Shown here: piece by piece, positions 8,635 to 39,544 of the stretch | Layout: each line of letters begins with the position of its first letter | Numbering within the stretch: the stretch's first letter is position 1 | Origin: Promethearchaeota archaeon | Lineage (GTDB): Archaea > Asgardarchaeota > Lokiarchaeia > Sigyniarchaeales > SOKP01 | DNA: 55,946 nt | Reading direction: 5' to 3' | Assembly: GCA_016839585.1 (NCBI GenBank) | Contig: JAEOTZ010000045.1 | Location: forward strand, 1 to 55,946 | Position numbers and translations under genes: made by a program | The notes under the pieces: generated by a model | What the model was told of the DNA's origin: nothing | The model's database searches: none | Seen by the model: the letters and a program-made list of their open reading frames with translations, nothing else

Positions 8635-10926
8635 TTATTCAACTGGTCGAAAAATTCCTTTTTTTATTAAAGAAAGAATTGCTTCATAATCTTTTGGAGT
8701 ACACACATTTTCCGGAAGTAAGTAAATAGCATAAAAGTAATTAAATTTATGTTGTTTCATAAAATCTAAAGCTCTTTTAATCATTTCTTTCTCATTTTGG
8801 TTTAGATCAGCTTTTTTAGGTATTACAATTTTTAATGGATAAAGGAGTGTAATATTCATATGCTTTTCCACTAAATTCTTTATTCCTCGAAATGGTTTAA
8901 GATTTCCATCAAATTGATCAATTAAGTTACCATAATTTTTGTATATATCATAAGCTAAAGACTCAATAGAGTATAAAAAGTTTTTAGAGGGATTTTCTTT
9001 CATTATTATGATTATTCTTAAATTTACAAACTCAACCATTAAAAGGATTGAGCCACGATACTCTAATTTAATTGTGCGTGAGTCTTTAGTTCCTTCTAAC
9101 ACTTCTGTTCCAAAATTATGCAATGCTTGTAGATATCCCGCAATTAATGTTAAATCAAATTCTTTTTCTTCAAATGACTCTGCGTATAAATCAATACCGG
9201 ATTTCTTATCAAGAACAATGATATATTTTAAATTCATAACATCTGTGCATTCTTCTAAGATTAGTTTTAATCTTTTTCTACCTTTTGTTTCGCGCTTTTT
9301 GAGGATTGTATAACCTATGAATCCCATAAAAGCAGCAGCAATTATAATAATGCCGATAATAAGAAATAGTGAAAAATCGGGGCTAGACCCAGTAGAAACT
9401 GGGACAGAAGTGATGGTAAATACTTGTGTTTGAACTCCTGCATCAGTTTGATTATTCCAATATAAATATGCAATATAGTTACCTTCTAAAATACCTGAAG
9501 GCAAATTATAAGAAAATACATTATTATCAGGTGGAATTGTCTTTTTTATTTCAAATTCAACAGAACCGAGAGGATCAATTAATTGAAATGTATAATTTCC
9601 AGGTAAAACAGGAGGACTAATTGAAAATACTAATTCTTCCCCAATTTCAAATTCAGTTGTAATAGTATTAATATTAAAGTTAATGTTTGGAGAATAAGCT
9701 TTTATTTCCCATTCTGCCCCATCTGAAATTATATTATGTGGTATACATAAGAGATTTTCTGTAGGGTTGATTGTTACATTGTTGGTTATATCTAACAAAT
9801 CTTTATAAATTGAAAAGTTCTTCCATTGTGAAGGATAGTAGAATTCTATTGAACAATTGCTTGAATATCGTGTAATGGAAGGTCTTACTATCCATTCATT
9901 AGTAGAATTAGCTTTAATTGTTACTGAAGCAGGGGATAAGAAAATATTATGCGTATTCAATAAATAATCTACATCGAAAATCAGAATTGCTGAATTATTG
10001 TTAAAAATAGGAAGGTTAATTTGTTCACTATTAGGAGAAAAAATTAGTGGAGTAAGGGGTAAATTACCAGATCCAATAGAAGGTCCATTTTGAATTTCAT
10101 AATACTCATTATCAATTTCAATAGTCATATTAATATCTTCTGGATAAACAGGAACTCCTGTTTCTCGAATTAATTTATATAAAAAGGGGGAATTTGATAT
10201 TCCCGTAGTCCAAATACCCTCTATAAATCGAGAGATTAATAAATTTGGATTTTTTGGATCAATATTGTTATAATACCAGTAATATTCATTATCGTTTACT
10301 GAAATAATATTCGAGCCATTTAAGACTAAAAAATAATCTCCTTTTGGTAATAATAATGGTGAGGGTGAAAGAAAGTCTTGCAAATACCATCCTTCTGCAT
10401 TTGACATATTGATATCCATAGTCAAATATATAGTATTATTAGGGATCTCGTTTGCTGTATCATATCCTCTTATTTGAACTTGAATAACTTTAGGAGAGGG
10501 GGTATTTTCTCTCCTTCCATATAGGTATATTCCATGCAGTGTCTCGGATTCATTTAAATGTAATTGTACTGCTAATCCTTGCTCTCTATCATTAACATTT
10601 TGGTAATAAATCGTATGATAAATTCCCGAATAACTTTTATTTTCGATATTTTCTATCTCTGTGCCTAGATTTTTTATATTTGTGAAATTTAGTTCAATAT
10701 TTTCTATGTTCCATGAAGAAGATGGCAATTCAATGTCAATTGAATCCACATTATTATGAAAACCCTGATTAATTGAATTTTCAACCATTTCGAAATTCAA
10801 GTTAATATTAAGAGAATGTTCACTACCATTTGACGAAACAACATCTAAATTCTGAAATAATACGGTAAATAAACTTAATAAGATTACAAAAATAAATCCT
10901 CTTTTTAATAAATTTAATGTCTTCAT
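8635..10926 (-). CDS. Single-pass receptor-like protein with cytoplasmic longin-like domain (dispersed copy D)
   Basis: N-terminal hydrophobic segment; many NxS/T sequons; TM FLIIGIIIIAAAFMGFIGY; YIIVLDKKSGIDLY...LIAGYLQALHNFG; collinear with the three ORFs at 32419-39544. Confidence 0.8.
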   Translation of the reverse strand: MKTLNLLKRGFIFVILLSLFTVLFQNLDVVSSNGSEHSLNINLNFEMVENSINQGFHNNVDSIDIELPSSSWNIENIELNFTNIKNLGTEIENIENKSYSGIYHTIYYQNVNDREQGLAVQLHLNESETLHGIYLYGRRENTPSPKVIQVQIRGYDTANEIPNNTIYLTMDINMSNAEGWYLQDFLSPSPLLLPKGDYFLVLNGSNIISVNDNEYYWYYNNIDPKNPNLLISRFIEGIWTTGISNSPFLYKLIRETGVPVYPEDINMTIEIDNEYYEIQNGPSIGSGNLPLTPLIFSPNSEQINLPIFNNNSAILIFDVDYLLNTHNIFLSPASVTIKANSTNEWIVRPSITRYSSNCSIEFYYPSQWKNFSIYKDLLDITNNVTINPTENLLCIPHNIISDGAEWEIKAYSPNINFNINTITTEFEIGEELVFSISPPVLPGNYTFQLIDPLGSVEFEIKKTIPPDNNVFSYNLPSGILEGNYIAYLYWNNQTDAGVQTQVFTITSVPVSTGSSPDFSLFLIIGIIIIAAAFMGFIGYTILKKRETKGRKRLKLILEECTDVMNLKYIIVLDKKSGIDLYAESFEEKEFDLTLIAGYLQALHNFGTEVLEGTKDSRTIKLEYRGSILLMVEFVNLRIIIIMKENPSKNFLYSIESLAYDIYKNYGNLIDQFDGNLKPFRGIKNLVEKHMNITLLYPLKIVIPKKADLNQNEKEMIKRALDFMKQHKFNYFYAIYLLPENVCTPKDYEAILSLIKKGIFRPVE

Positions 10927-32418: not shown

Positions 32419-34692
32419 TTATAATTTAGGTTGAAAGACTTTTTTCTTTATCAAATTAAGGATTATTTCGGCCTCTTTTGCATCAAAATCCTTTCTTATT
32501 GATAAGAGACTAGTTACAGTAAAATAATCCTTGTTTTTCTTTCTCATAATCACTTTAGCGCGATTTACCATGGATTTTTCATCAGACTTAAGTTTTATAT
32601 CTAGTTTAATTATTTCTAATGGATATATCAACGCTGTTTGTAAATGTTGTTCAAGTAATTCACCAATATCTTTAAAAGGGATTAAATTTCCATTAAAACT
32701 TTCAATTATATCACCATATCTTTTATCAATATCATAAGATAACGCTTTGATAGATTCTAAGAAGTCCTGGGAAGGTTTTTCTTTCATAATAAGCAAAATT
32801 CTAAAACTCTTAAATTCTGACATTAAGATTTTTGAATCTTGATATTCCAATTTTATTGTCTGAGATTGTTCACCAGCTCCAGTTAATTCAATACCAAAAC
32901 TACGAATTGCTTCAAGAAATCCTGCAACTAATGAAGCATCAATGGATTTGCCAGCTAAAATTTGTTCGTACAAATTTAACCCAGACTTTTTATGTGTAAT
33001 AATAAAATAATCTAAATTTAATACATCCATATATTTATTAAATATGCTCTGTCTGTATGCCTCGTGTTTTCTCTTAGTATTTTTAACAAGTTTATATGTG
33101 GTAAAACTAGCAATTGACAAAAGAGCTATAGAAGACACTATTATAACAATTAGCATGGGATCTAATACAAAAGGGACAGTAATTTCAAATTCTTGGGTAA
33201 TAACTCCTGCATCTGTAGCGTTATTCCAGAAAATATAAGCCTTATAAGTTCCCTCATTGGGATTAGATGGAAGTTGATAAGTAAGTAAGAGATCCTCTGT
33301 TCCGATTGACTCTATAACATAAATTACATCTGATTGAGCTGGATAAGCTAATGAATTAATTAACCTAAAAGTAATATTTCCCGGAGGAATTGGAGAAAGA
33401 ATAGAAAATTGTATTTCTTGACCCGCGCTAAACTTTGTTTTTTGTACATTTAAAGGAAGTTGTATATTTGGAGAATTTGCTGTTATTTTCCAATCTGCAC
33501 CCTCTATTATTGTATTATTTGGAAGTAATATAAAATAATTTATTGGATCTTTTATGATATCTATTGTAATATTCTCCCATCCAAATCCTATATCTCTATA
33601 TATAGTTAAATTATACCAACTGTTTGGATATATAAATTTAATCGAATAATTAGAATAACATCTATCGAAATTTTGAGTCATTGTCCAAGTATTTTTCAAA
33701 TTCTCTTTAATTGATAATTCCCACACTGTATCAAGAATATTTTGAAGTTTGATATGATAACTTAAATTGAATAATAACTCAGGGACACGATTATTTACTA
33801 TTGGTATATTATATATTTCAGATAAAGGGGAAATATCTTTACTAATATTTAATTGACCAGTTCCAGGTTCTGTTCCATTTAAGATGGGATAATTAATACC
33901 ATCAATAATTGCACTCATATTAATTTCCTCCGGATCAAAAGATTCATTTACTCTTTGAATTAATTTATATAATAAAGGTTCTCCAGTAGCTTCTAAGTTC
34001 CATTTTGCGCCATCATGTTTTGATGTATTCAGATTATTAATAGAGCCACTATCATTAAAAAACCAATCATAAGCTGTTTTATCTATGGGAATATTCATTT
34101 CTGTTCCATTCATTACCAGATAATATTGGCCAATTGAAAGTGGTATTGGGTTTTCGAAGGTTTGGATATACCAATCAAAATTATTAGTCATATTTATTGG
34201 TACTGCTCCATAAATATTATCATCTGGTATGCCTTCTGCGCCATTATACCCGTGTATTTGTATGTAGGTCGGAATTGATGGAGCGCCACCGCTACGAACT
34301 CCATATATATATACTCCAAAAATTTCCGTCGGTACAGTAATATTAATTTGAACACCATATCCGGGATCACCTTTATAACCTACTGTTTTGCTATCCTCTC
34401 CCTCTTCTTCAATTGTTATAATTTCTTTTCCTAATTTTATATCAGTAAAATTCATTTCAATATTTGTTATATTCCATGAAGCAGATGGTAATGGAATATC
34501 TATTGAACTTATACTATTACTTGTATTTATGTTATCTGCAAATTCAAGCATCTGGAAATTTGAATTGATTTCAAGGGTTTCATCATTATACTGAGCATTA
34601 GCAAAATTAGCACTATATATTAAACTTAGTAATAAAAGTGTTATGAAAGTGAAGCCTATTATAAAATTTCTTGATTTATATGCCTTTTCCAA
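32419..34692 (-). CDS. Single-pass receptor-like protein with cytoplasmic longin-like domain (array copy A)
   Basis: Signal peptide ...NFANAQ; sequon-rich ectodomain; TM; YFIITHKKSGLNLY...LVAGFLEAIRSFG. Confidence 0.8.
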   Translation of the reverse strand: MEKAYKSRNFIIGFTFITLLLLSLIYSANFANAQYNDETLEINSNFQMLEFADNINTSNSISSIDIPLPSASWNITNIEMNFTDIKLGKEIITIEEEGEDSKTVGYKGDPGYGVQINITVPTEIFGVYIYGVRSGGAPSIPTYIQIHGYNGAEGIPDDNIYGAVPINMTNNFDWYIQTFENPIPLSIGQYYLVMNGTEMNIPIDKTAYDWFFNDSGSINNLNTSKHDGAKWNLEATGEPLLYKLIQRVNESFDPEEINMSAIIDGINYPILNGTEPGTGQLNISKDISPLSEIYNIPIVNNRVPELLFNLSYHIKLQNILDTVWELSIKENLKNTWTMTQNFDRCYSNYSIKFIYPNSWYNLTIYRDIGFGWENITIDIIKDPINYFILLPNNTIIEGADWKITANSPNIQLPLNVQKTKFSAGQEIQFSILSPIPPGNITFRLINSLAYPAQSDVIYVIESIGTEDLLLTYQLPSNPNEGTYKAYIFWNNATDAGVITQEFEITVPFVLDPMLIVIIVSSIALLSIASFTTYKLVKNTKRKHEAYRQSIFNKYMDVLNLDYFIITHKKSGLNLYEQILAGKSIDASLVAGFLEAIRSFGIELTGAGEQSQTIKLEYQDSKILMSEFKSFRILLIMKEKPSQDFLESIKALSYDIDKRYGDIIESFNGNLIPFKDIGELLEQHLQTALIYPLEIIKLDIKLKSDEKSMVNRAKVIMRKKNKDYFTVTSLLSIRKDFDAKEAEIILNLIKKKVFQPKL

Positions 34693-34753
34693 ATATAAAA
34701 CCCTGAAGAATTAAAATTGAAATAAAATGTCTAACAATATAGTCTAAATTTGT

Positions 34754-34779
34754 CTATTTAAATTTTGATTTTATTACTT
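34754..34779 (-). promoter_or_regulatory. Conserved promoter block (TTTAAATA) upstream of copy A
   Basis: 26 bp identical to 37179-37204 inside otherwise diverged spacers. Confidence 0.6.
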
Positions 34780-34840
34780 CTAGGATTCATTAAAATAAGT
34801 TGTTTTTATTCAAAATCGAAGAATTGAGAGATTAATAAGG

Positions 34841-37120
34841 CTAAATTGCTACTTGAAAAATATTTTTCTCTATTAATTTAAGAATGATTTCAATATCTTT
34901 AGGGCTACAAGTTTTTTCGGGTATCAAATCTTTAAGATAAAAGAATTTAGTACCATTTTTATTCATAATTGATATCGCAGTATTTATAACAGACTTTTCA
35001 GAGGGGTAAATTCTAATTTTTTCTAATTTATCTATATTAACAAGTTTTAGAGGATATAAAATTGAAACATTTAGGTGCTTTATAAGTAAATCCTCAATAC
35101 CCTTAAATTGCCGAACATCTCCATTAAATTGATCAATCATATTCCCGTAATTCTTATAAGTATCATAAGCTAGATCTTCAAGGGAATAGAGCAAGTATTT
35201 TGATGGACTTTCTTTCATTATTAAGATTAATCTAATATTTATGAATTCACTCACTAGTACAATTGAATCTTTATATTCTAATTTTATAGTTTGAGATTGA
35301 TTTTCAACTTTCATTAGTTCAATTCCAAATGAAGAAATGGCTTGCAAAAATCCAGAAATCAATGTACCATTTAATTCTTTAATAGCAAATTTTTGTTCAT
35401 AAATGCTTAATCCAGAATTCTTATTTGTCACAATAAGATAATCAAGGTTCATAATGTCCATACATTTACTAAAGATTTTCTGCTCTTCCTCAATTTTTCT
35501 GGTTCGAATCTTTTTAATTGTTCTGTATGATATAATACTAAATGCTGATAATCCTAGTGCAAGTAGGACAATTCCAAAAATAGTTAGTGGATCTAAGGTG
35601 AATGGGACTGATTGAACTATTATTTGGAATTTTTGAGTAATTACACCTGCATCCGTAGCATTATTCCAAAAAACATAAGCCTTATAATTTCCCTCATGGG
35701 GATTAGATGGAAGTGTATAATTTAGTTTAAGATCCTCTGTTTCGATTGAATCTATTACATAAGTTTCATCTGGCTGAGCTGGATACCCAAAAGTATTAAT
35801 TAACCTAAAAGTAATATTTCCTGGAGGAATTGGAGGCAGAACAGAAAATTGTATTTCTTGACCCGGGTTAAACTTTTCTTTTTGTACATCGTAAGGAAGT
35901 TGAATATTTGGAGAATTTGCTGTGATTTCCCAATCTATATCCTCTATTATTGTATTATTTGGAAGAAATATAAAATGATTTATTGGATCTTTTATAATAT
36001 CACTTGTAATATTTTCCCATCCAATTCCACTGTTTCTATATATAGTTATATTATACCAACTGTTTGGATAAATAAATTTAATAGAATAATTACAATAATA
36101 CCGTGAAATTTCAGGATTTAAAGTCCAAAGATTGGCAGGATTCTCTTGAATGAATACAAAACCTTCGGTATTTAAGAAATTTTGTAATTTAATATGAAAA
36201 CTTAGATCAAATAATAATTCAATTGATCGATTATTATAGATTGGTATATTAAAAACATCACTATTGGGAGAGATATTTTTATTCACAATAATACTTCCAT
36301 TTCCACTAATTGAAAATAACGATCTATCAATATCTAATGTCATATTTATTTCTTCAGGATTAAATGATCTATCTACTCTTTGGAATAGTTTATATAGAAG
36401 AGGTTTACCTACATCTTCTTCAGACCATACCCCGCCATCATAAAATGCTGTATGTAAATTGGTGTTTATAGATCCACTACCGTTAAATAACCAATTGTAA
36501 TCTGATTTGTCAGTAGGAAAAGTTAATTCTGATCCGTTAATTACTAAATAATAGTTTCCTGGAGAGAGTGGGACTTCATATTCAAAAATTTGTTGATGCC
36601 ATCCTGGAGTAGAAATATTTATTACGGTATTTCCTAGAATATTTTCATCTGGAGAATTGGTTGAAATATTATATCCTTGTATTTGAACATATACTGGTTG
36701 ACGTGGAGTCCCAGTTATATAGCCATAGATATAAACACCAAATAGTATAGTAGGCTCAATAATATTGATTTCAACACCATATCCTAATTTACCCCTTGAA
36801 TCTATTCTATGAATATTTTGACCGCTTTCTTCAACTGTTTTTATTTCTTTACCTAATTTTACATCTGTAAAATTCATTTCAATATTTGTTATATTCCATG
36901 AAACAGATGGTAATGAAATATCTATTGAACTTATTCCATTACTCGTATTTATGTTATCTGCAAATTCAAGCATCGGGAAATTTGAATGGGTTTCAAGGAT
37001 TTCATCATTATTCTGAGCATTAGCAAAATTAGTACTATATATTAAACTTAGTAATAAAAGTGTCATAAAAGTGATTCCTATTATAAAATTTCCTGATTTA
37101 TATACCTTTTTCAAATACAA
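34841..37120 (-). CDS. Single-pass receptor-like protein with longin-like domain (array copy B, chimeric; start likely TTG at 37114)
   Basis: N-terminus and membrane-proximal ectodomain match A; TM and cytoplasmic tail match C. Confidence 0.85.
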   Translation of the reverse strand: MYLKKVYKSGNFIIGITFMTLLLLSLIYSTNFANAQNNDEILETHSNFPMLEFADNINTSNGISSIDISLPSVSWNITNIEMNFTDVKLGKEIKTVEESGQNIHRIDSRGKLGYGVEINIIEPTILFGVYIYGYITGTPRQPVYVQIQGYNISTNSPDENILGNTVINISTPGWHQQIFEYEVPLSPGNYYLVINGSELTFPTDKSDYNWLFNGSGSINTNLHTAFYDGGVWSEEDVGKPLLYKLFQRVDRSFNPEEINMTLDIDRSLFSISGNGSIIVNKNISPNSDVFNIPIYNNRSIELLFDLSFHIKLQNFLNTEGFVFIQENPANLWTLNPEISRYYCNYSIKFIYPNSWYNITIYRNSGIGWENITSDIIKDPINHFIFLPNNTIIEDIDWEITANSPNIQLPYDVQKEKFNPGQEIQFSVLPPIPPGNITFRLINTFGYPAQPDETYVIDSIETEDLKLNYTLPSNPHEGNYKAYVFWNNATDAGVITQKFQIIVQSVPFTLDPLTIFGIVLLALGLSAFSIISYRTIKKIRTRKIEEEQKIFSKCMDIMNLDYLIVTNKNSGLSIYEQKFAIKELNGTLISGFLQAISSFGIELMKVENQSQTIKLEYKDSIVLVSEFINIRLILIMKESPSKYLLYSLEDLAYDTYKNYGNMIDQFNGDVRQFKGIEDLLIKHLNVSILYPLKLVNIDKLEKIRIYPSEKSVINTAISIMNKNGTKFFYLKDLIPEKTCSPKDIEIILKLIEKNIFQVAI

Positions 37121-37178
37121 ATCCCTGAAGATTTAAAATTATACAAAAATGTTACCAAAAAATATAATCTCAATTAAA

Positions 37179-37204
37179 CTATTTAAATTTTGATTTTATT
37201 ACTT
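37179..37204 (-). promoter_or_regulatory. Conserved promoter block upstream of copy B
   Basis: Identical to 34754-34779. Confidence 0.6.
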
Positions 37205-37264
37205 ATACAATTCATAAATAATAATTAATAAGTATTCAAAATTAAAGAATTGGAGATTTTAAAA

Positions 37265-39544
37265 TTAAACAGCAGCTTGAAAAATATTTTTCTCTATTAA
37301 TTTAAGAATAAGTTCAATATCTTTAGGGCTGCAAGTTTTTTCAATTATTAAATCTTTAATATAAAAAAAATCAGTAGTATCTTTATTCATAATTGATATT
37401 GCATCATTAATAAAAGACTTCTCAGTAGGGCTAACTCTAATATTCTCTAATTTATCTATATCAACAAGTCTTAGAGGATATACAATTGCAATATTTAGGT
37501 GCTTTATTAGTAAATTCTCTATACCTTTAAATTTTCTAACATCTCCATCAAACTGATCAATTAAATTCCCATAATTCTTATAGATATCATAAGCTAAATC
37601 TTCAAGTGAATAGAGTAAGTATTTTGATGGACTTTCTTTCATTATTAAAATTAATCTAACATTTACAAATTCACTCATTAATACAATTGAATCCTTATAT
37701 TCTAATTTTATAGTTTGAGATTGATTTTCAACTTTCATTAGTTCAATTCCAAAAGAAGAAAGGGCTTGCAAAAATCCAGAAATCAATGTACCATTTAATT
37801 GTTTACTTGTAAATTTTTGTTCATAAACACTTAATCCAGATATCTTATTTGTTACAATAAGATAATCAAGGTTCATAATATCCATACATTTACTGAAGAT
37901 TTTCTGCTTTTCCTCAATTTTTCTGGTTCGAACCTTTTTAATTGTTCTGTATGATATAATACTAAATGCTGCAAATACTACTACAAGTAGGACAATTCCA
38001 AAAATAGTTAATGGATCTAAGGTGAATGGGACTGATGGAACTATTATTTGGAATTCTTGAGATTGAACTCCTGCATCTGTTTCATCATTCCAATAAATCT
38101 CTATAGTGTATTCTCCTTCACGGAAACTTGATGGTATTACAAATGAAAATAAAATTTCGTCTGAAGTCACTTCTCTATTTAATTCAATAATCTCGATAAA
38201 ATTTCCTGGTTTTATTAAAATAAATGTAAGATTGCCTTGTATTATTGGAACTTCAACTGAAAATTGTAGGTCTTGTTCTGGTTTATATTCAGAAAATAAT
38301 CCTTTTATCTCGAAATCAATATTCGGTGAATTTGCTGTGATTTTCCAGTCTGCACCCTCTATAATTATGTCGTTTGGAAGAAGTATAAAATGATTTAATG
38401 AGTCTATTATAATATATGATGTAATATTTTCCCAATCAGTTCCAATATCTCTATATATAGTTAAATTTTGCCAACTTCCAGAGTATTCATATTTAACTGA
38501 ATAATTAGATGAGAACCTAGAAAATTCCGGATAAATATTCCATTCATTATTAGAATCTGTAATTAATACAGATCCTTCTGAAAGAAAGGAGTTTCTTAAA
38601 TTAATGCTATAATTAACGTTAAAGGCTAAATCAGATATTAAATTATTTTTAATTGGAATAGAGATAACGTCAGTATTCAGAGAATAATTAAGATTTAAAT
38701 TTAGGTATCCTATTCCAGAACTACTGCCATTTAAAATAGGATAATAACTCTCATCTAGTTCAGCAGACATATTAATTTCTTCTGGAAAAACTTCTTTTGT
38801 AATTCTTTGATCTAGTTTATAGAGAAGCGTTTCATTAGTTATACCATTTACCCAATCCGCTTCATATCCCCATGAAAATAGATTTGGGTTATTTGGATTT
38901 TCATCATTCATTTCCCAATAATACCTTGCACTATCAGAGGGACCCATTTCTGAACCATTCATAATTAAGTAGTAATATCCTTTCGTAAGATGTACAGTAG
39001 AATTAAAAGTTTGGGAGTACCATTTTGTTTCACTTGACATATTTAATGCAACAGATCTATAAACAGTTTCATTTGGTTTGTTTGTAGGATTATCATAACC
39101 ATTTATTTGAACAGTTATAATAGTTGTTGTGGCTGGTCTAGATTCATATCCATAAATTTGGACTCCAAAAACATCAGTAGGTTCTGTAATATTAATTTGT
39201 ACGGCATATGCTTTATCTCCTTTATCTAATTCTCTCGAATGACCAATTATATTACTTTCTACTTCTTTTATCTCCCGCTTAAATTCAATATTCGTAAAAT
39301 TTAATTCAATATCTGTTAAATCCCATTTAGATGAGTTTAACGGAATCTCTATTAAACTAACATTATTAATATTTTCTTCAAGATTTGCATATTCAGTCAT
39401 TTCAAAATTAAGATTAATCGGAGGAGATTCGCCATTAATTTGAGCAGTGGTAAAATTTATAAAATTATTTAAAATAAAGAGAAAACAAAATAAAACTAAT
39501 AAGATCCAGATAAAATTCTTCGCTTTTGAAGTAACCTTTGTCAT
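37265..39544 (-). CDS. Single-pass receptor-like protein with longin-like domain (array copy C)
   Basis: Same architecture; YLIVTNKISGLSVY...LISGFLQALSSFG. Confidence 0.8.
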   Translation of the reverse strand: MTKVTSKAKNFIWILLVLFCFLFILNNFINFTTAQINGESPPINLNFEMTEYANLEENINNVSLIEIPLNSSKWDLTDIELNFTNIEFKREIKEVESNIIGHSRELDKGDKAYAVQINITEPTDVFGVQIYGYESRPATTTIITVQINGYDNPTNKPNETVYRSVALNMSSETKWYSQTFNSTVHLTKGYYYLIMNGSEMGPSDSARYYWEMNDENPNNPNLFSWGYEADWVNGITNETLLYKLDQRITKEVFPEEINMSAELDESYYPILNGSSSGIGYLNLNLNYSLNTDVISIPIKNNLISDLAFNVNYSINLRNSFLSEGSVLITDSNNEWNIYPEFSRFSSNYSVKYEYSGSWQNLTIYRDIGTDWENITSYIIIDSLNHFILLPNDIIIEGADWKITANSPNIDFEIKGLFSEYKPEQDLQFSVEVPIIQGNLTFILIKPGNFIEIIELNREVTSDEILFSFVIPSSFREGEYTIEIYWNDETDAGVQSQEFQIIVPSVPFTLDPLTIFGIVLLVVVFAAFSIISYRTIKKVRTRKIEEKQKIFSKCMDIMNLDYLIVTNKISGLSVYEQKFTSKQLNGTLISGFLQALSSFGIELMKVENQSQTIKLEYKDSIVLMSEFVNVRLILIMKESPSKYLLYSLEDLAYDIYKNYGNLIDQFDGDVRKFKGIENLLIKHLNIAIVYPLRLVDIDKLENIRVSPTEKSFINDAISIMNKDTTDFFYIKDLIIEKTCSPKDIELILKLIEKNIFQAAV

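What the first reader, a model, noticed from the sequence alone, without database searches (positions are those of the whole stretch)
33190..38060. Middle array gene is a chimera with its crossover at the ectodomain/membrane boundary
Seen: copy B shares its promoter block, signal peptide and membrane-proximal ectodomain with copy A (PIPPGNITFRLIN...FWNNATDAGVITQ). From FQIIV.SVPFTLDPLTIFGIVLL to the stop it is nearly identical to copy C. In the DNA the switch lies at about 35628-35640, next to an aatt.ttg stretch shared by all three genes, and the two intergenic spacers are also homologous. Inference: unequal crossing-over between ancestral C and A produced a gene with an A-type input and a C-type output, i.e. 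modular receptor rewiring by recombination.
Basis: partly seen in the sequence, partly recalled or inferred. Interest (0 to 1): 0.82.

Follow-up and report, generated by a model that had tools for sequence, protein, structure and literature searches.

The report
Hybrid receptor gene from unequal crossover
The middle gene of a three-gene array in an Asgard archaeon is a real recombinant: the outside part comes from the downstream-type gene and the membrane anchor and inner longin domain come from the upstream gene. The process is familiar, but here it shows that the outer and inner halves of these surface proteins can be swapped.

Summary
Genes C, B and A (minus strand, transcribed C to B to A) encode about 758-aa type-I glycoproteins. 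Each has an all-beta ectodomain, one transmembrane (TM) helix and a cytosolic longin-fold tail.

- **Breakpoint:** B switches from A/downstream-type to C-type between window 35638 and 35627 (max chi-square 313; permutation maximum 20).
- **Trees:** ectodomain and tail trees conflict (AU p = 4e-7 and 1e-31).
- **Spacers:** both spacers are copies of the single spacer found in relatives. About 20 genus relatives carry only an up/down pair at the syntenic locus and 6 carry a single gene.
- **Not an artefact:** the same junction is in a sister species (G043), in two further NCBI contigs, and in an independent study's contig.

The interpretation needs one correction. B's lectin-like ligand domain (aa 90-249) is not A-like (49% identity, dS about 1.3). 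It belongs to a second ("beta") allele class that relatives carry on A-type tails. So the parent was a beta-type downstream gene, not today's A.

The best model is one unequal crossover that duplicated a 2.42-kb unit, followed by 5' gene conversion between A and B. "Receptor rewiring" remains an inference. The mechanism is a well-known kind (anti-Lepore type).

The parts
37265..39544 (-). Gene C, the 'up' gene: 759 aa, own ectodomain class, up-type stalk, TM and longin tail. It donated B's 3' part.
   Evidence: ORF. In the tail tree C pairs with B at 100* inside the up-type class.
38051..38062 (-). Position in C equivalent to B's crossover interval
   Evidence: Codon alignment
37121..37264 (-). 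C-B spacer, one copy of the ancestral up-dn spacer. It has a conserved AT-rich box (TTTAAATAG) about 60 nt before B's start. The promoter role is inferred.
   Evidence: 70% identical to the B-A spacer and 80% to the single spacer of G057
34841..37120 (-). Gene B, the hybrid: 759 aa counted from a TTG start. The public annotation uses an internal ATG, giving 741 aa.
35639..37120 (-). B 5' part of downstream-gene (dn) lineage: signal peptide plus ectodomain
   Evidence: Ectodomain tree: B is sister to A inside the dn clade, which is 100*. Triplet with G056_dn as parent: 472 to 89 informative sites.
36374..36853 (-). Lectin-like jelly-roll domain of B (aa 90-249), 'beta' allele class. It is not A-like.
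   Evidence: Fold match to the phi812 baseplate protein (Z 17.5, rmsd 2.3 over 151 aa) and to the Cwp84 lectin-like domain (Z 14.0). 49% identity to A against 82-85% to G056_dn, P0002 and P0003. Mid-region tree.
35621..35914 (-). Membrane-proximal Ig/macroglobulin-like domain (aa 403-500). The crossover lies in its last strand.
   Evidence: Complement C5 MG domain: Z about 11, rmsd 2.2 over 92 aa. Predicted strands.
35627..35638 (-). Crossover interval. The sequence is identical in the G043 copy of B.
34841..35626 (-). B 3' part of C (up-type) lineage: stalk, TM helix (35525-35587), longin domain (35057-35461) and a C-terminal helical subdomain of about 70 aa
   Evidence: 84% aa identity and dS 0.26 to C against 46% and dS 1.42 to A. 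Longin fold: Sec22b Z 12.1, rmsd 2.6 over 121 aa.
34693..34840 (-). B-A spacer, the second copy of the ancestral up-dn spacer
32419..34692 (-). Gene A, the 'dn' gene: 757 aa, 'alpha' lectin-like class, dn-type tail
33187..33198 (-). Position in A equivalent to B's crossover interval

Best explanation
B is a hybrid gene made by one non-allelic (unequal) homologous recombination in an ancestral two-gene array, up gene (C) followed by dn gene.

- **The event:** the exchange paired the dn gene of one DNA molecule with the up gene of another. It occurred at a conserved motif in the last strand of the membrane-proximal domain. It duplicated a 2.42-kb unit made of the up-gene 3' part, the spacer and the dn-gene 5' part. 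The product is C, then a hybrid with a dn 5' part and an up 3' part (B), then the dn gene (A), with the spacer present twice. This is the duplication ('anti-Lepore') product.
- **The parent:** the dn parent carried a 'beta' class lectin-like domain, whereas gene A today carries the 'alpha' class. Either the exchange was between two haplotypes (one alpha, one beta), or A's middle part was replaced later by homologous recombination. These two sub-scenarios were not separated.
- **Timing:** the event happened at about the time G000 and G043 split, and was inherited or exchanged among at least four assemblies.
- **Afterwards:** the 5' ends of A and B were homogenised by gene conversion in G000. 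B stayed intact under purifying selection.
- **Function (inferred):** the proteins are type-I surface glycoproteins whose lectin-like domain binds an external ligand and whose cytosolic longin domain engages cytosolic partners. B presents a dn-lineage ectodomain on an up-type stalk, TM and longin module.
For: - **Breakpoint:** single and sharp, chi-square 312.6 against a permutation maximum of 20.3. With the beta-type parent G056_dn the pattern is clean: left 472:89, right 4:128.
- **Trees:** the tails form two deep classes. B pairs with C at 100* in the up class, and A sits in the dn class, which is 100* with a stem of 0.8. B's ectodomain lies in the dn clade. AU tests reject A+B for the tail (p 1e-31) and B+C for the ectodomain (p 4e-7).
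- **Spacers:** both are full-length homologues of the single spacer of G057 and G056. The unit lengths are 2424 and 2440 bp.
- **Ancestral state:** syntenic up/dn pairs occur in about 20 genus relatives and single genes in 6. Among 54 genomes of the genus, only G000 and G043 have three adjacent genes.
- **Same junction elsewhere:** it is identical in G043_B. The cluster of proteins at least 90% identical to B has members on 4 contigs. An independent study's contig (X5, 35552-35811, 3 differences) and X1's 1314-bp contig (0 differences) bridge the junction.
- **Timing:** dS of the B/C tail is 0.26, against 0.10-0.66 for flanking genes between G000 and G043.
- **Beta class:** B's middle region is sister to G056_dn, P0002, P0003 and P0004 (97*), while A sits in a separate alpha clade (99*).
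- **5' conversion:** dS of the A/B N-terminal part is 0.13 in G000 and 0.42 in G043.
- **Selection:** omega is 0.2-0.6 in most segments.
- **Folds:**. **Topology and sequons:**
Against: - A full duplication of the dn gene followed by conversion of its 3' part and spacer from C would give the same final sequence. Only parsimony favours one event.
- Divergence is not uniform over the duplicated unit: dS is 0.13, 1.3, 0.33 and 0.26 in successive parts. Later exchanges, or an inter-haplotype event, must therefore be added.
- B's ectodomain is almost identical between G000 and G043 (dS 0.02-0.04) while its tail has dS 0.19. Inter-species recombination blurs the dating.
- No reciprocal single fusion gene (up 5' part with dn 3' part) was seen. 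The single genes of relatives have up-type tails.
- Function rests on predicted structures. There is no Pfam hit.
Confidence: 0.62

Rival explanations
1. Two steps. An older tandem duplicate of the whole dn gene sat between C and A. A later non-reciprocal gene conversion tract from C overwrote its stalk, TM, tail and downstream spacer.
For: Gene conversion is active in this array. The 5' ends of A and B have dS 0.13 in G000 against 0.42 in G043. Identity between G000 and G043 is a mosaic of 77-99%. The alpha and beta ectodomain classes are old (dS about 1.3), which would fit an old duplicate.
Against: It needs two events, and the tract must end exactly so that the whole B-A spacer matches the C-B spacer. 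None of the 54 genus genomes searched shows the intermediate of three genes with two dn-type tails. Beta-type ectodomains occur in relatives as the only dn gene, that is as alleles and not as a second paralogue.
Confidence: 0.25
2. The hybrid came in by transfer. B arose in another lineage and reached G000, or G043, by homologous recombination of the whole locus, so the crossover did not occur in this genome's direct ancestors.
For: A 97-99% identity block between G000 and G043 covers 35200-36850, while flanks are 77-93%. dS of the B ectodomain is 0.02-0.04, against 0.10-0.66 for neighbouring genes.
Against: This changes only where the event happened, not what B is. B's tail is as diverged between the two species (dS 0.19) as A's tail is.
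Confidence: 0.1
3. Assembly artefact: the metagenome assembler joined strains or paralogues at the shared motif.
For: The genome is a metagenome assembly of 91 contigs, and the junction lies in a motif shared by paralogues.
Against: The identical junction is found in a different species' assembly (G043, contig of 156911 bp) and on two more NCBI contigs. Contigs from two studies bridge it. B differs from both neighbours throughout (169 B-only sites).
Confidence: 0.01

Closest known systems
Hybrid genes from unequal crossing-over in tandem arrays (haemoglobin anti-Lepore/Lepore, red-green opsin hybrids, glycophorin A/B hybrids). Named from general knowledge.
   Same: The hybrid has the 5' part of the downstream gene and the 3' part of the upstream gene. 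It sits between intact parents, with a duplicated spacer and a breakpoint at homologous positions of paralogues.
   Different: This is an archaeal (Asgard) locus. The parents were only about 45% identical in protein, so the exchange used a very short shared stretch (8 nt, preceded by 15 nt) and not long homology. The parent ectodomain was a different allele class from the copy now next to it.
Longin-domain membrane proteins of eukaryotes (Sec22b, Ykt6, VAMP7 longin SNAREs) and the Lokiarchaeota Roadblock-Longin protein (PDB 8yqg)
   Same: The predicted tail has the beta-beta-alpha-beta-beta-beta-alpha longin fold. Matches: Sec22b Z 12.1 (rmsd 2.6 over 121 aa), Ykt6 Z 10.4, 8yqg Z 10.3. The domain is cytosolic and held at a membrane.
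   Different: No SNARE motif was noted: the tail shows only a longin fold plus a ~70-aa helical end. The longin domain follows a TM helix and a glycosylated ectodomain of about 470 aa, instead of preceding a C-terminal anchor. No sequence-profile match to Pfam families.
Mosaic surface-protein genes that exchange cassettes by recombination (for example bacterial adhesin and pilin variation systems). Named from general knowledge.
   Same: Divergent allele classes of an exposed binding domain lie between conserved flanks. They are shared across species and shuffled by recombination.
   Different: No silent cassette store or dedicated recombinase was seen. All copies are full-length expressed-type genes.

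Membership tests
Hybrid gene from unequal crossover (duplication product) | 5' part from the downstream parent and 3' part from the upstream parent, with one breakpoint at homologous positions | tested here: met
   Trees and AU tests.
Hybrid gene from unequal crossover (duplication product) | The spacers on both sides of the hybrid are copies of the single ancestral spacer | tested here: met
   70% identity to each other, 80% and 79% to the G057 spacer
Hybrid gene from unequal crossover (duplication product) | Relatives keep the two-gene ancestral state at the syntenic locus | tested here: met
   Pairs in about 20 genomes; three genes only in G000 and G043 among the 54 genus genomes searched.
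Hybrid gene from unequal crossover (duplication product) | Uniform divergence over the whole duplicated unit, as expected for one event with no later exchange | tested here: not met
   dS is 0.13, 1.3, 0.33 and 0.26 by segment. This needs an inter-haplotype event or later replacement or conversion.
Longin domain (Roadblock/longin superfamily) | beta-beta-alpha-beta-beta-beta-alpha order and close structural match to solved longin domains | tested here: met
   Predicted model has pLDDT 81.6. Its elements are E24-31, E37-42, H50-62, E78-81, E84-91, E94-100 and H106-128. Z 12.1 to Sec22b and many matches at Z 9-10. This is a prediction, not a solved structure.
Longin domain (Roadblock/longin superfamily) | Sequence-profile match to curated longin or Roadblock families | tested here: not met
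   No Pfam family at E up to 1 relates to longin or Roadblock. No PDB sequence hit with the tail profile.
Longin domain (Roadblock/longin superfamily) | Binds a small GTPase, a SNARE or adaptor partner, or a second longin domain | not testable with these tools
   There is only a weak complex prediction for the A tail with the B tail.
Type-I single-pass surface glycoprotein | N-terminal signal-like hydrophobic segment, one TM helix, basic residues after the TM, and N-glycosylation sequons confined to the ectodomain | tested here: met
   Hydrophobic segments at aa 9-30 and 504-535. There are 18-19 sequons before the TM and 0-4 after it. An R/K-rich stretch follows the TM. No dedicated predictor was run.

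The most novel reading that the evidence does not exclude
The conserved up/dn gene pair encodes the two halves of a heterodimeric surface receptor whose two deep longin-tail classes pair in the cytosol. Recombination at domain boundaries is this family's normal way of making new receptor combinations. It was seen twice independently: in B here, and in the reverse hybrid in G013 and G015. On this reading B is a natural domain swap that lets a dn-lineage lectin domain occupy the up-type position, giving Asgard archaea a combinatorial receptor repertoire wired to longin and small-GTPase machinery.
Probability: 0.15. Interest if true: 0.8.

Novelty: new member of a known kind. Interest (0 to 1): 0.5.

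Why it matters
The process, a hybrid gene made by unequal crossover, is textbook. The value lies in the context.

The family consists of Asgard-archaeal surface glycoproteins with a cytosolic longin domain. That fold serves small-GTPase and trafficking machinery in eukaryotes.

B has been kept intact in at least two species, and there is a second, reverse hybrid in another lineage. Together these are natural domain-swap experiments. They show that the ectodomain and the stalk-TM-longin module fold and persist independently.

They also define the two tail classes and the allele classes of the lectin-like domain. These are the obvious variables for any binding or signalling experiment on these proteins.

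Tried and rejected
The 15819-bp contig holding P0001 and P0008 could not be fetched, so their adjacency is inferred from equal contig length only.
- **Pfam** gave no meaningful family for A, B or C. A **PDB sequence search** with the tail profile gave nothing.
- **Expression:** no RNA holder was listed for the stretch, so expression is unknown.
- **Logan contigs** are short in this repeat region. No single piece spans the whole 3.3 kb. One X5 contig appears to 'go back 2422'. I read it as a relative's C 3' end, spacer and B 5' start mapping onto B's tail, not as a rearrangement.
- **Complex prediction** of the A-type tail with the B (up-type) tail gave weak support only.
  - The score was 0.41, against 0.00 for the best of 3 controls.
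  - The tool's mark was reached by 58 of 80 solved complexes and by 2 of 110 mismatched pairs.
  - At a score of 0.60 or under, only 7 of those 80 solved complexes reached it, as did both of the mismatches that passed.
  - The runs agree in at least 94% of contacts, and the partner's pLDDT is at least 79.
  - Longin dimers are solved, so the pass may be from memory, and no homodimer comparison was possible. I do not use it as evidence.
- **Post-duplication positive selection** as the cause of the divergent middle of the ectodomain: rejected. dS is also about 1.3 there, and the same class occurs in other genomes.
- **Donor within this genome:** D or E as donor of B's middle part is rejected (31-37% identity).
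- **Literature:** three searches found no description of membrane-anchored longin receptors in Asgard archaea. This is a limited library, so it is not proof of absence.
Full report
**What is there**

The window comes from a 3.45-Mb, 29% GC metagenome-assembled genome. Source labels on homologues read Promethearchaeota or Lokiarchaeota, that is Asgard archaea.

Three minus-strand genes lie head to tail: C 37265-39544, B 34841-37120 and A 32419-34692, giving 759, 759 and 757 aa. Two more full-length paralogues exist, at window 8647-10899 and on contig C41.

Each protein has the following features.
- An N-terminal hydrophobic signal-like segment.
- An ectodomain of about 470 aa with 18-19 N-x-S/T sequons.
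- One TM helix followed by a basic stretch.
- A tail of about 225 aa.

**Predicted folds**

The ectodomain model (pLDDT 89) is all-beta. Two of its domains gave clear fold matches.
- aa 90-249 form a lectin-like jelly roll. It matches the phi812 baseplate protein (Z 17.5, rmsd 2.3 over 151 aa) and the Cwp84 lectin-like domain (Z 14.0).
- aa 403-500 form an Ig/macroglobulin-like domain next to the membrane (Z about 11).

The tail model (pLDDT 82) is a longin fold. It matches Sec22b (Z 12.1, rmsd 2.6 over 121 aa) and a Lokiarchaeota Roadblock-Longin protein (Z 10.3). About 70 helical residues follow it. No Pfam family or PDB sequence matches.

Protein and DNA sliding windows show the following.
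- B is like A in the upstream spacer, the signal peptide and the first 95 aa (82% aa, up to 94% nt).
- B is like A again in aa 331-496 (75% aa, 85-89% nt).
- B is like C from about aa 498 to the stop (84% aa, 80-96% nt) and into the 3' spacer.

Maximum chi-square on 779 informative sites puts the switch between 35638 and 35636. The value is 312.6, none of 2000 permutations reached it, and the permutation maximum was 20.3. At codon level the interval is 35627-35638. It lies in an 8-nt stretch shared by A and C, just after a 15-nt identical stretch encoding the family-wide T-D-A-G-V motif. In the model this is the last strand of the membrane-proximal domain.

**Trees**

I used 29 family members from syntenic loci of the genus.
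- The tails split into two deep classes. All downstream ('dn') genes, including A, form one clade (100*, stem 0.8). All upstream or single genes form the other, and B pairs with C at 100*.
- In the ectodomain tree B is sister to A inside a dn clade (100*), and C lies elsewhere.
- Forcing A+B together in the tail costs 228 log-likelihood units (AU p 1e-31). Forcing B+C together in the ectodomain costs 112 (p 4e-7).

**Ancestral state and spread**

The locus is syntenic across the genus. A 198-aa membrane protein lies on one side, and a sulfatase and a flavodoxin-like gene lie on the other.
- About 20 genomes carry an up/dn pair there, and 6 carry a single up-type gene.
- Among 54 genus genomes, only G000 and G043 have three adjacent genes.
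- G043's middle gene is 93% identical to B and has the identical junction codons.
- The cluster of proteins at least 90% identical to B has members on four contigs.
- Logan contigs from the probable source study bridge the junction: 1314 bp with 0 differences. So does a contig from a second study: 260 bp with 3 differences.

Assembly artefact is excluded.

**Spacers and unit**

The C-B and B-A spacers align over their full length at 70% identity. They are 80% and 79% identical to the single up-dn spacer of G057. The junction-equivalent positions are 38051-38062 in C and 33187-33198 in A, so the repeat unit is 2424 or 2440 bp. This is what a single unequal crossover between an up gene and a dn gene produces.

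B's aa 96-330, which includes the lectin-like domain, is only 49-56% identical to A, with dS about 1.3. That is as deep as the A/C comparison.

The same segments are 76-85% identical to dn genes of relatives that carry A-type tails: G056_dn (same gene as P0006), P0002 and P0003.

In a tree of this region the B genes (98*) are sister to those 'beta' dn genes (97*). A groups with G043_A, G057_dn and metagenome relatives in a long-stemmed 'alpha' clade (99*, stem 0.42). P0004 shows a third type in the lectin-like part.

With G056_dn as parent the recombination signal becomes clean: 472:89 on the left and 4:128 on the right, with the same breakpoint.

So the dn locus holds old allele classes shared across species, and B descends from a beta allele. 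Two routes are possible:
- the crossover joined two haplotypes;
- A's middle part was later replaced.

I could not separate these.

**Timing and later exchanges**

- dS of the B/C tail is 0.26. Neighbouring genes between G000 and G043 have dS 0.10-0.66. The event is therefore about as old as that split.
- The 5' ends of A and B have dS 0.13 in G000 but 0.42 in G043. A's 5' end is nearer to B than to G043_A (dS 0.35). This indicates recent gene conversion within G000.
- G000 and G043 are a 77-99% identity mosaic across the locus, with a 97-99% block over 35200-36850. This suggests recent exchange between the lineages.
- omega is mostly 0.2-0.6. It is near 0.8-1.0 only in the lectin-like segment of close pairs, where substitutions are few.

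**A second hybrid**

In G013 and G015 the dn gene has an up-type ectodomain up to about aa 390-410 (B numbering) and is dn-type from there on. The chi-square is 128 against a permutation maximum of 15.6. That breakpoint is at the start of the membrane-proximal domain. Exchange between the two paralogues at domain boundaries has therefore happened at least twice.

**Function**

*Shown (by prediction):* type-I topology, a lectin-like outer domain and a cytosolic longin fold.

*Established knowledge:* longin and Roadblock domains are dimerising platforms in GTPase regulators, SNAREs and adaptor complexes. Asgard genomes hold many such families, with extensive domain shuffling (bioRxiv 10.1101/2020.10.19.343400; PMC10933270).

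*Inferred:* ligand binding outside is coupled to longin-mediated partner binding inside. B puts a beta dn-lineage ectodomain on an up-type stalk, TM and longin module.

A heterodimer of the two tail classes got only weak support and I do not rely on it. The score was 0.41 against 0.00 for the best control. The mark was reached by 58 of 80 solved complexes and 2 of 110 mismatches, but at 0.60 or under by only 7 of those 80 and by both mismatches. The runs agree in at least 94% of contacts and the partner's pLDDT is at least 79.

**Verdict**

This is a real, inherited hybrid gene of a well-known mechanistic kind. The parent, however, was not today's gene A, and the 'rewiring' is still a hypothesis.

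Earlier notes of this scan had already named the family and its variable module. My fold, tree and allele-class results agree with them.

Noticed in passing
L047:5480-7738 (G013) and L048:7700-9958 (G015): The downstream gene here is a reverse hybrid. Its ectodomain is up-type to about aa 390-410 (B numbering), and the last Ig-like domain, TM and tail are dn-type. Chi-square is 128 against a permutation maximum of 15.6. This is an independent exchange at another domain boundary.
   Followed up: partly
window 36374-36853 (B) and 33940-34425 (A, approximate): The lectin-like domain of the downstream gene exists in at least two old allele classes, alpha and beta, with a third in P0004. They have dS about 1.3 and are shared across species: G057 has alpha, G056 and G063 have beta, and G000 and G043 keep both.
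   Followed up: yes
window 35200-36850 vs L063: G000 and G043 are 97-99% identical over B's junction and ectodomain, while neighbouring segments are 77-93% identical. dS is 0.02-0.04 here against 0.10-0.66 in flanking genes. This looks like recent recombination between the two species.
   Followed up: partly
window 36836-37264 and 34408-34840: The promoter region and first 95 codons of A and B are more alike within G000 (dS 0.13) than A is to its G043 orthologue (0.35). In G043 the A/B value is 0.42. This indicates recent gene conversion at the 5' ends in G000.
   Followed up: partly
window 37066-37120: B's public annotation (741 aa, cluster member P0122) starts at an internal ATG. The longer TTG-start form keeps the K/R-rich n-region that is conserved in homologues, so the longer form is the likelier product.
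   Followed up: no
L065:8909-11221 (G057), L064:1987-4293 (G056): Upstream genes of close relatives have ectodomains only 34-53% identical to C, although their tails are 76-79% identical and the flanking genes 80-95%. The upstream gene's ectodomain is therefore also highly polymorphic.
   Followed up: no
G000:C60:12419-13099, G000:C89:86700-87545 and similar loci in relatives: The same tail module (23-33% identity) ends much longer open frames, about 240-2240 aa and mostly over 1000 aa (for example 1573 and 1186 aa in G000), in this and related genomes. It is a widely reused output module.
   Followed up: no
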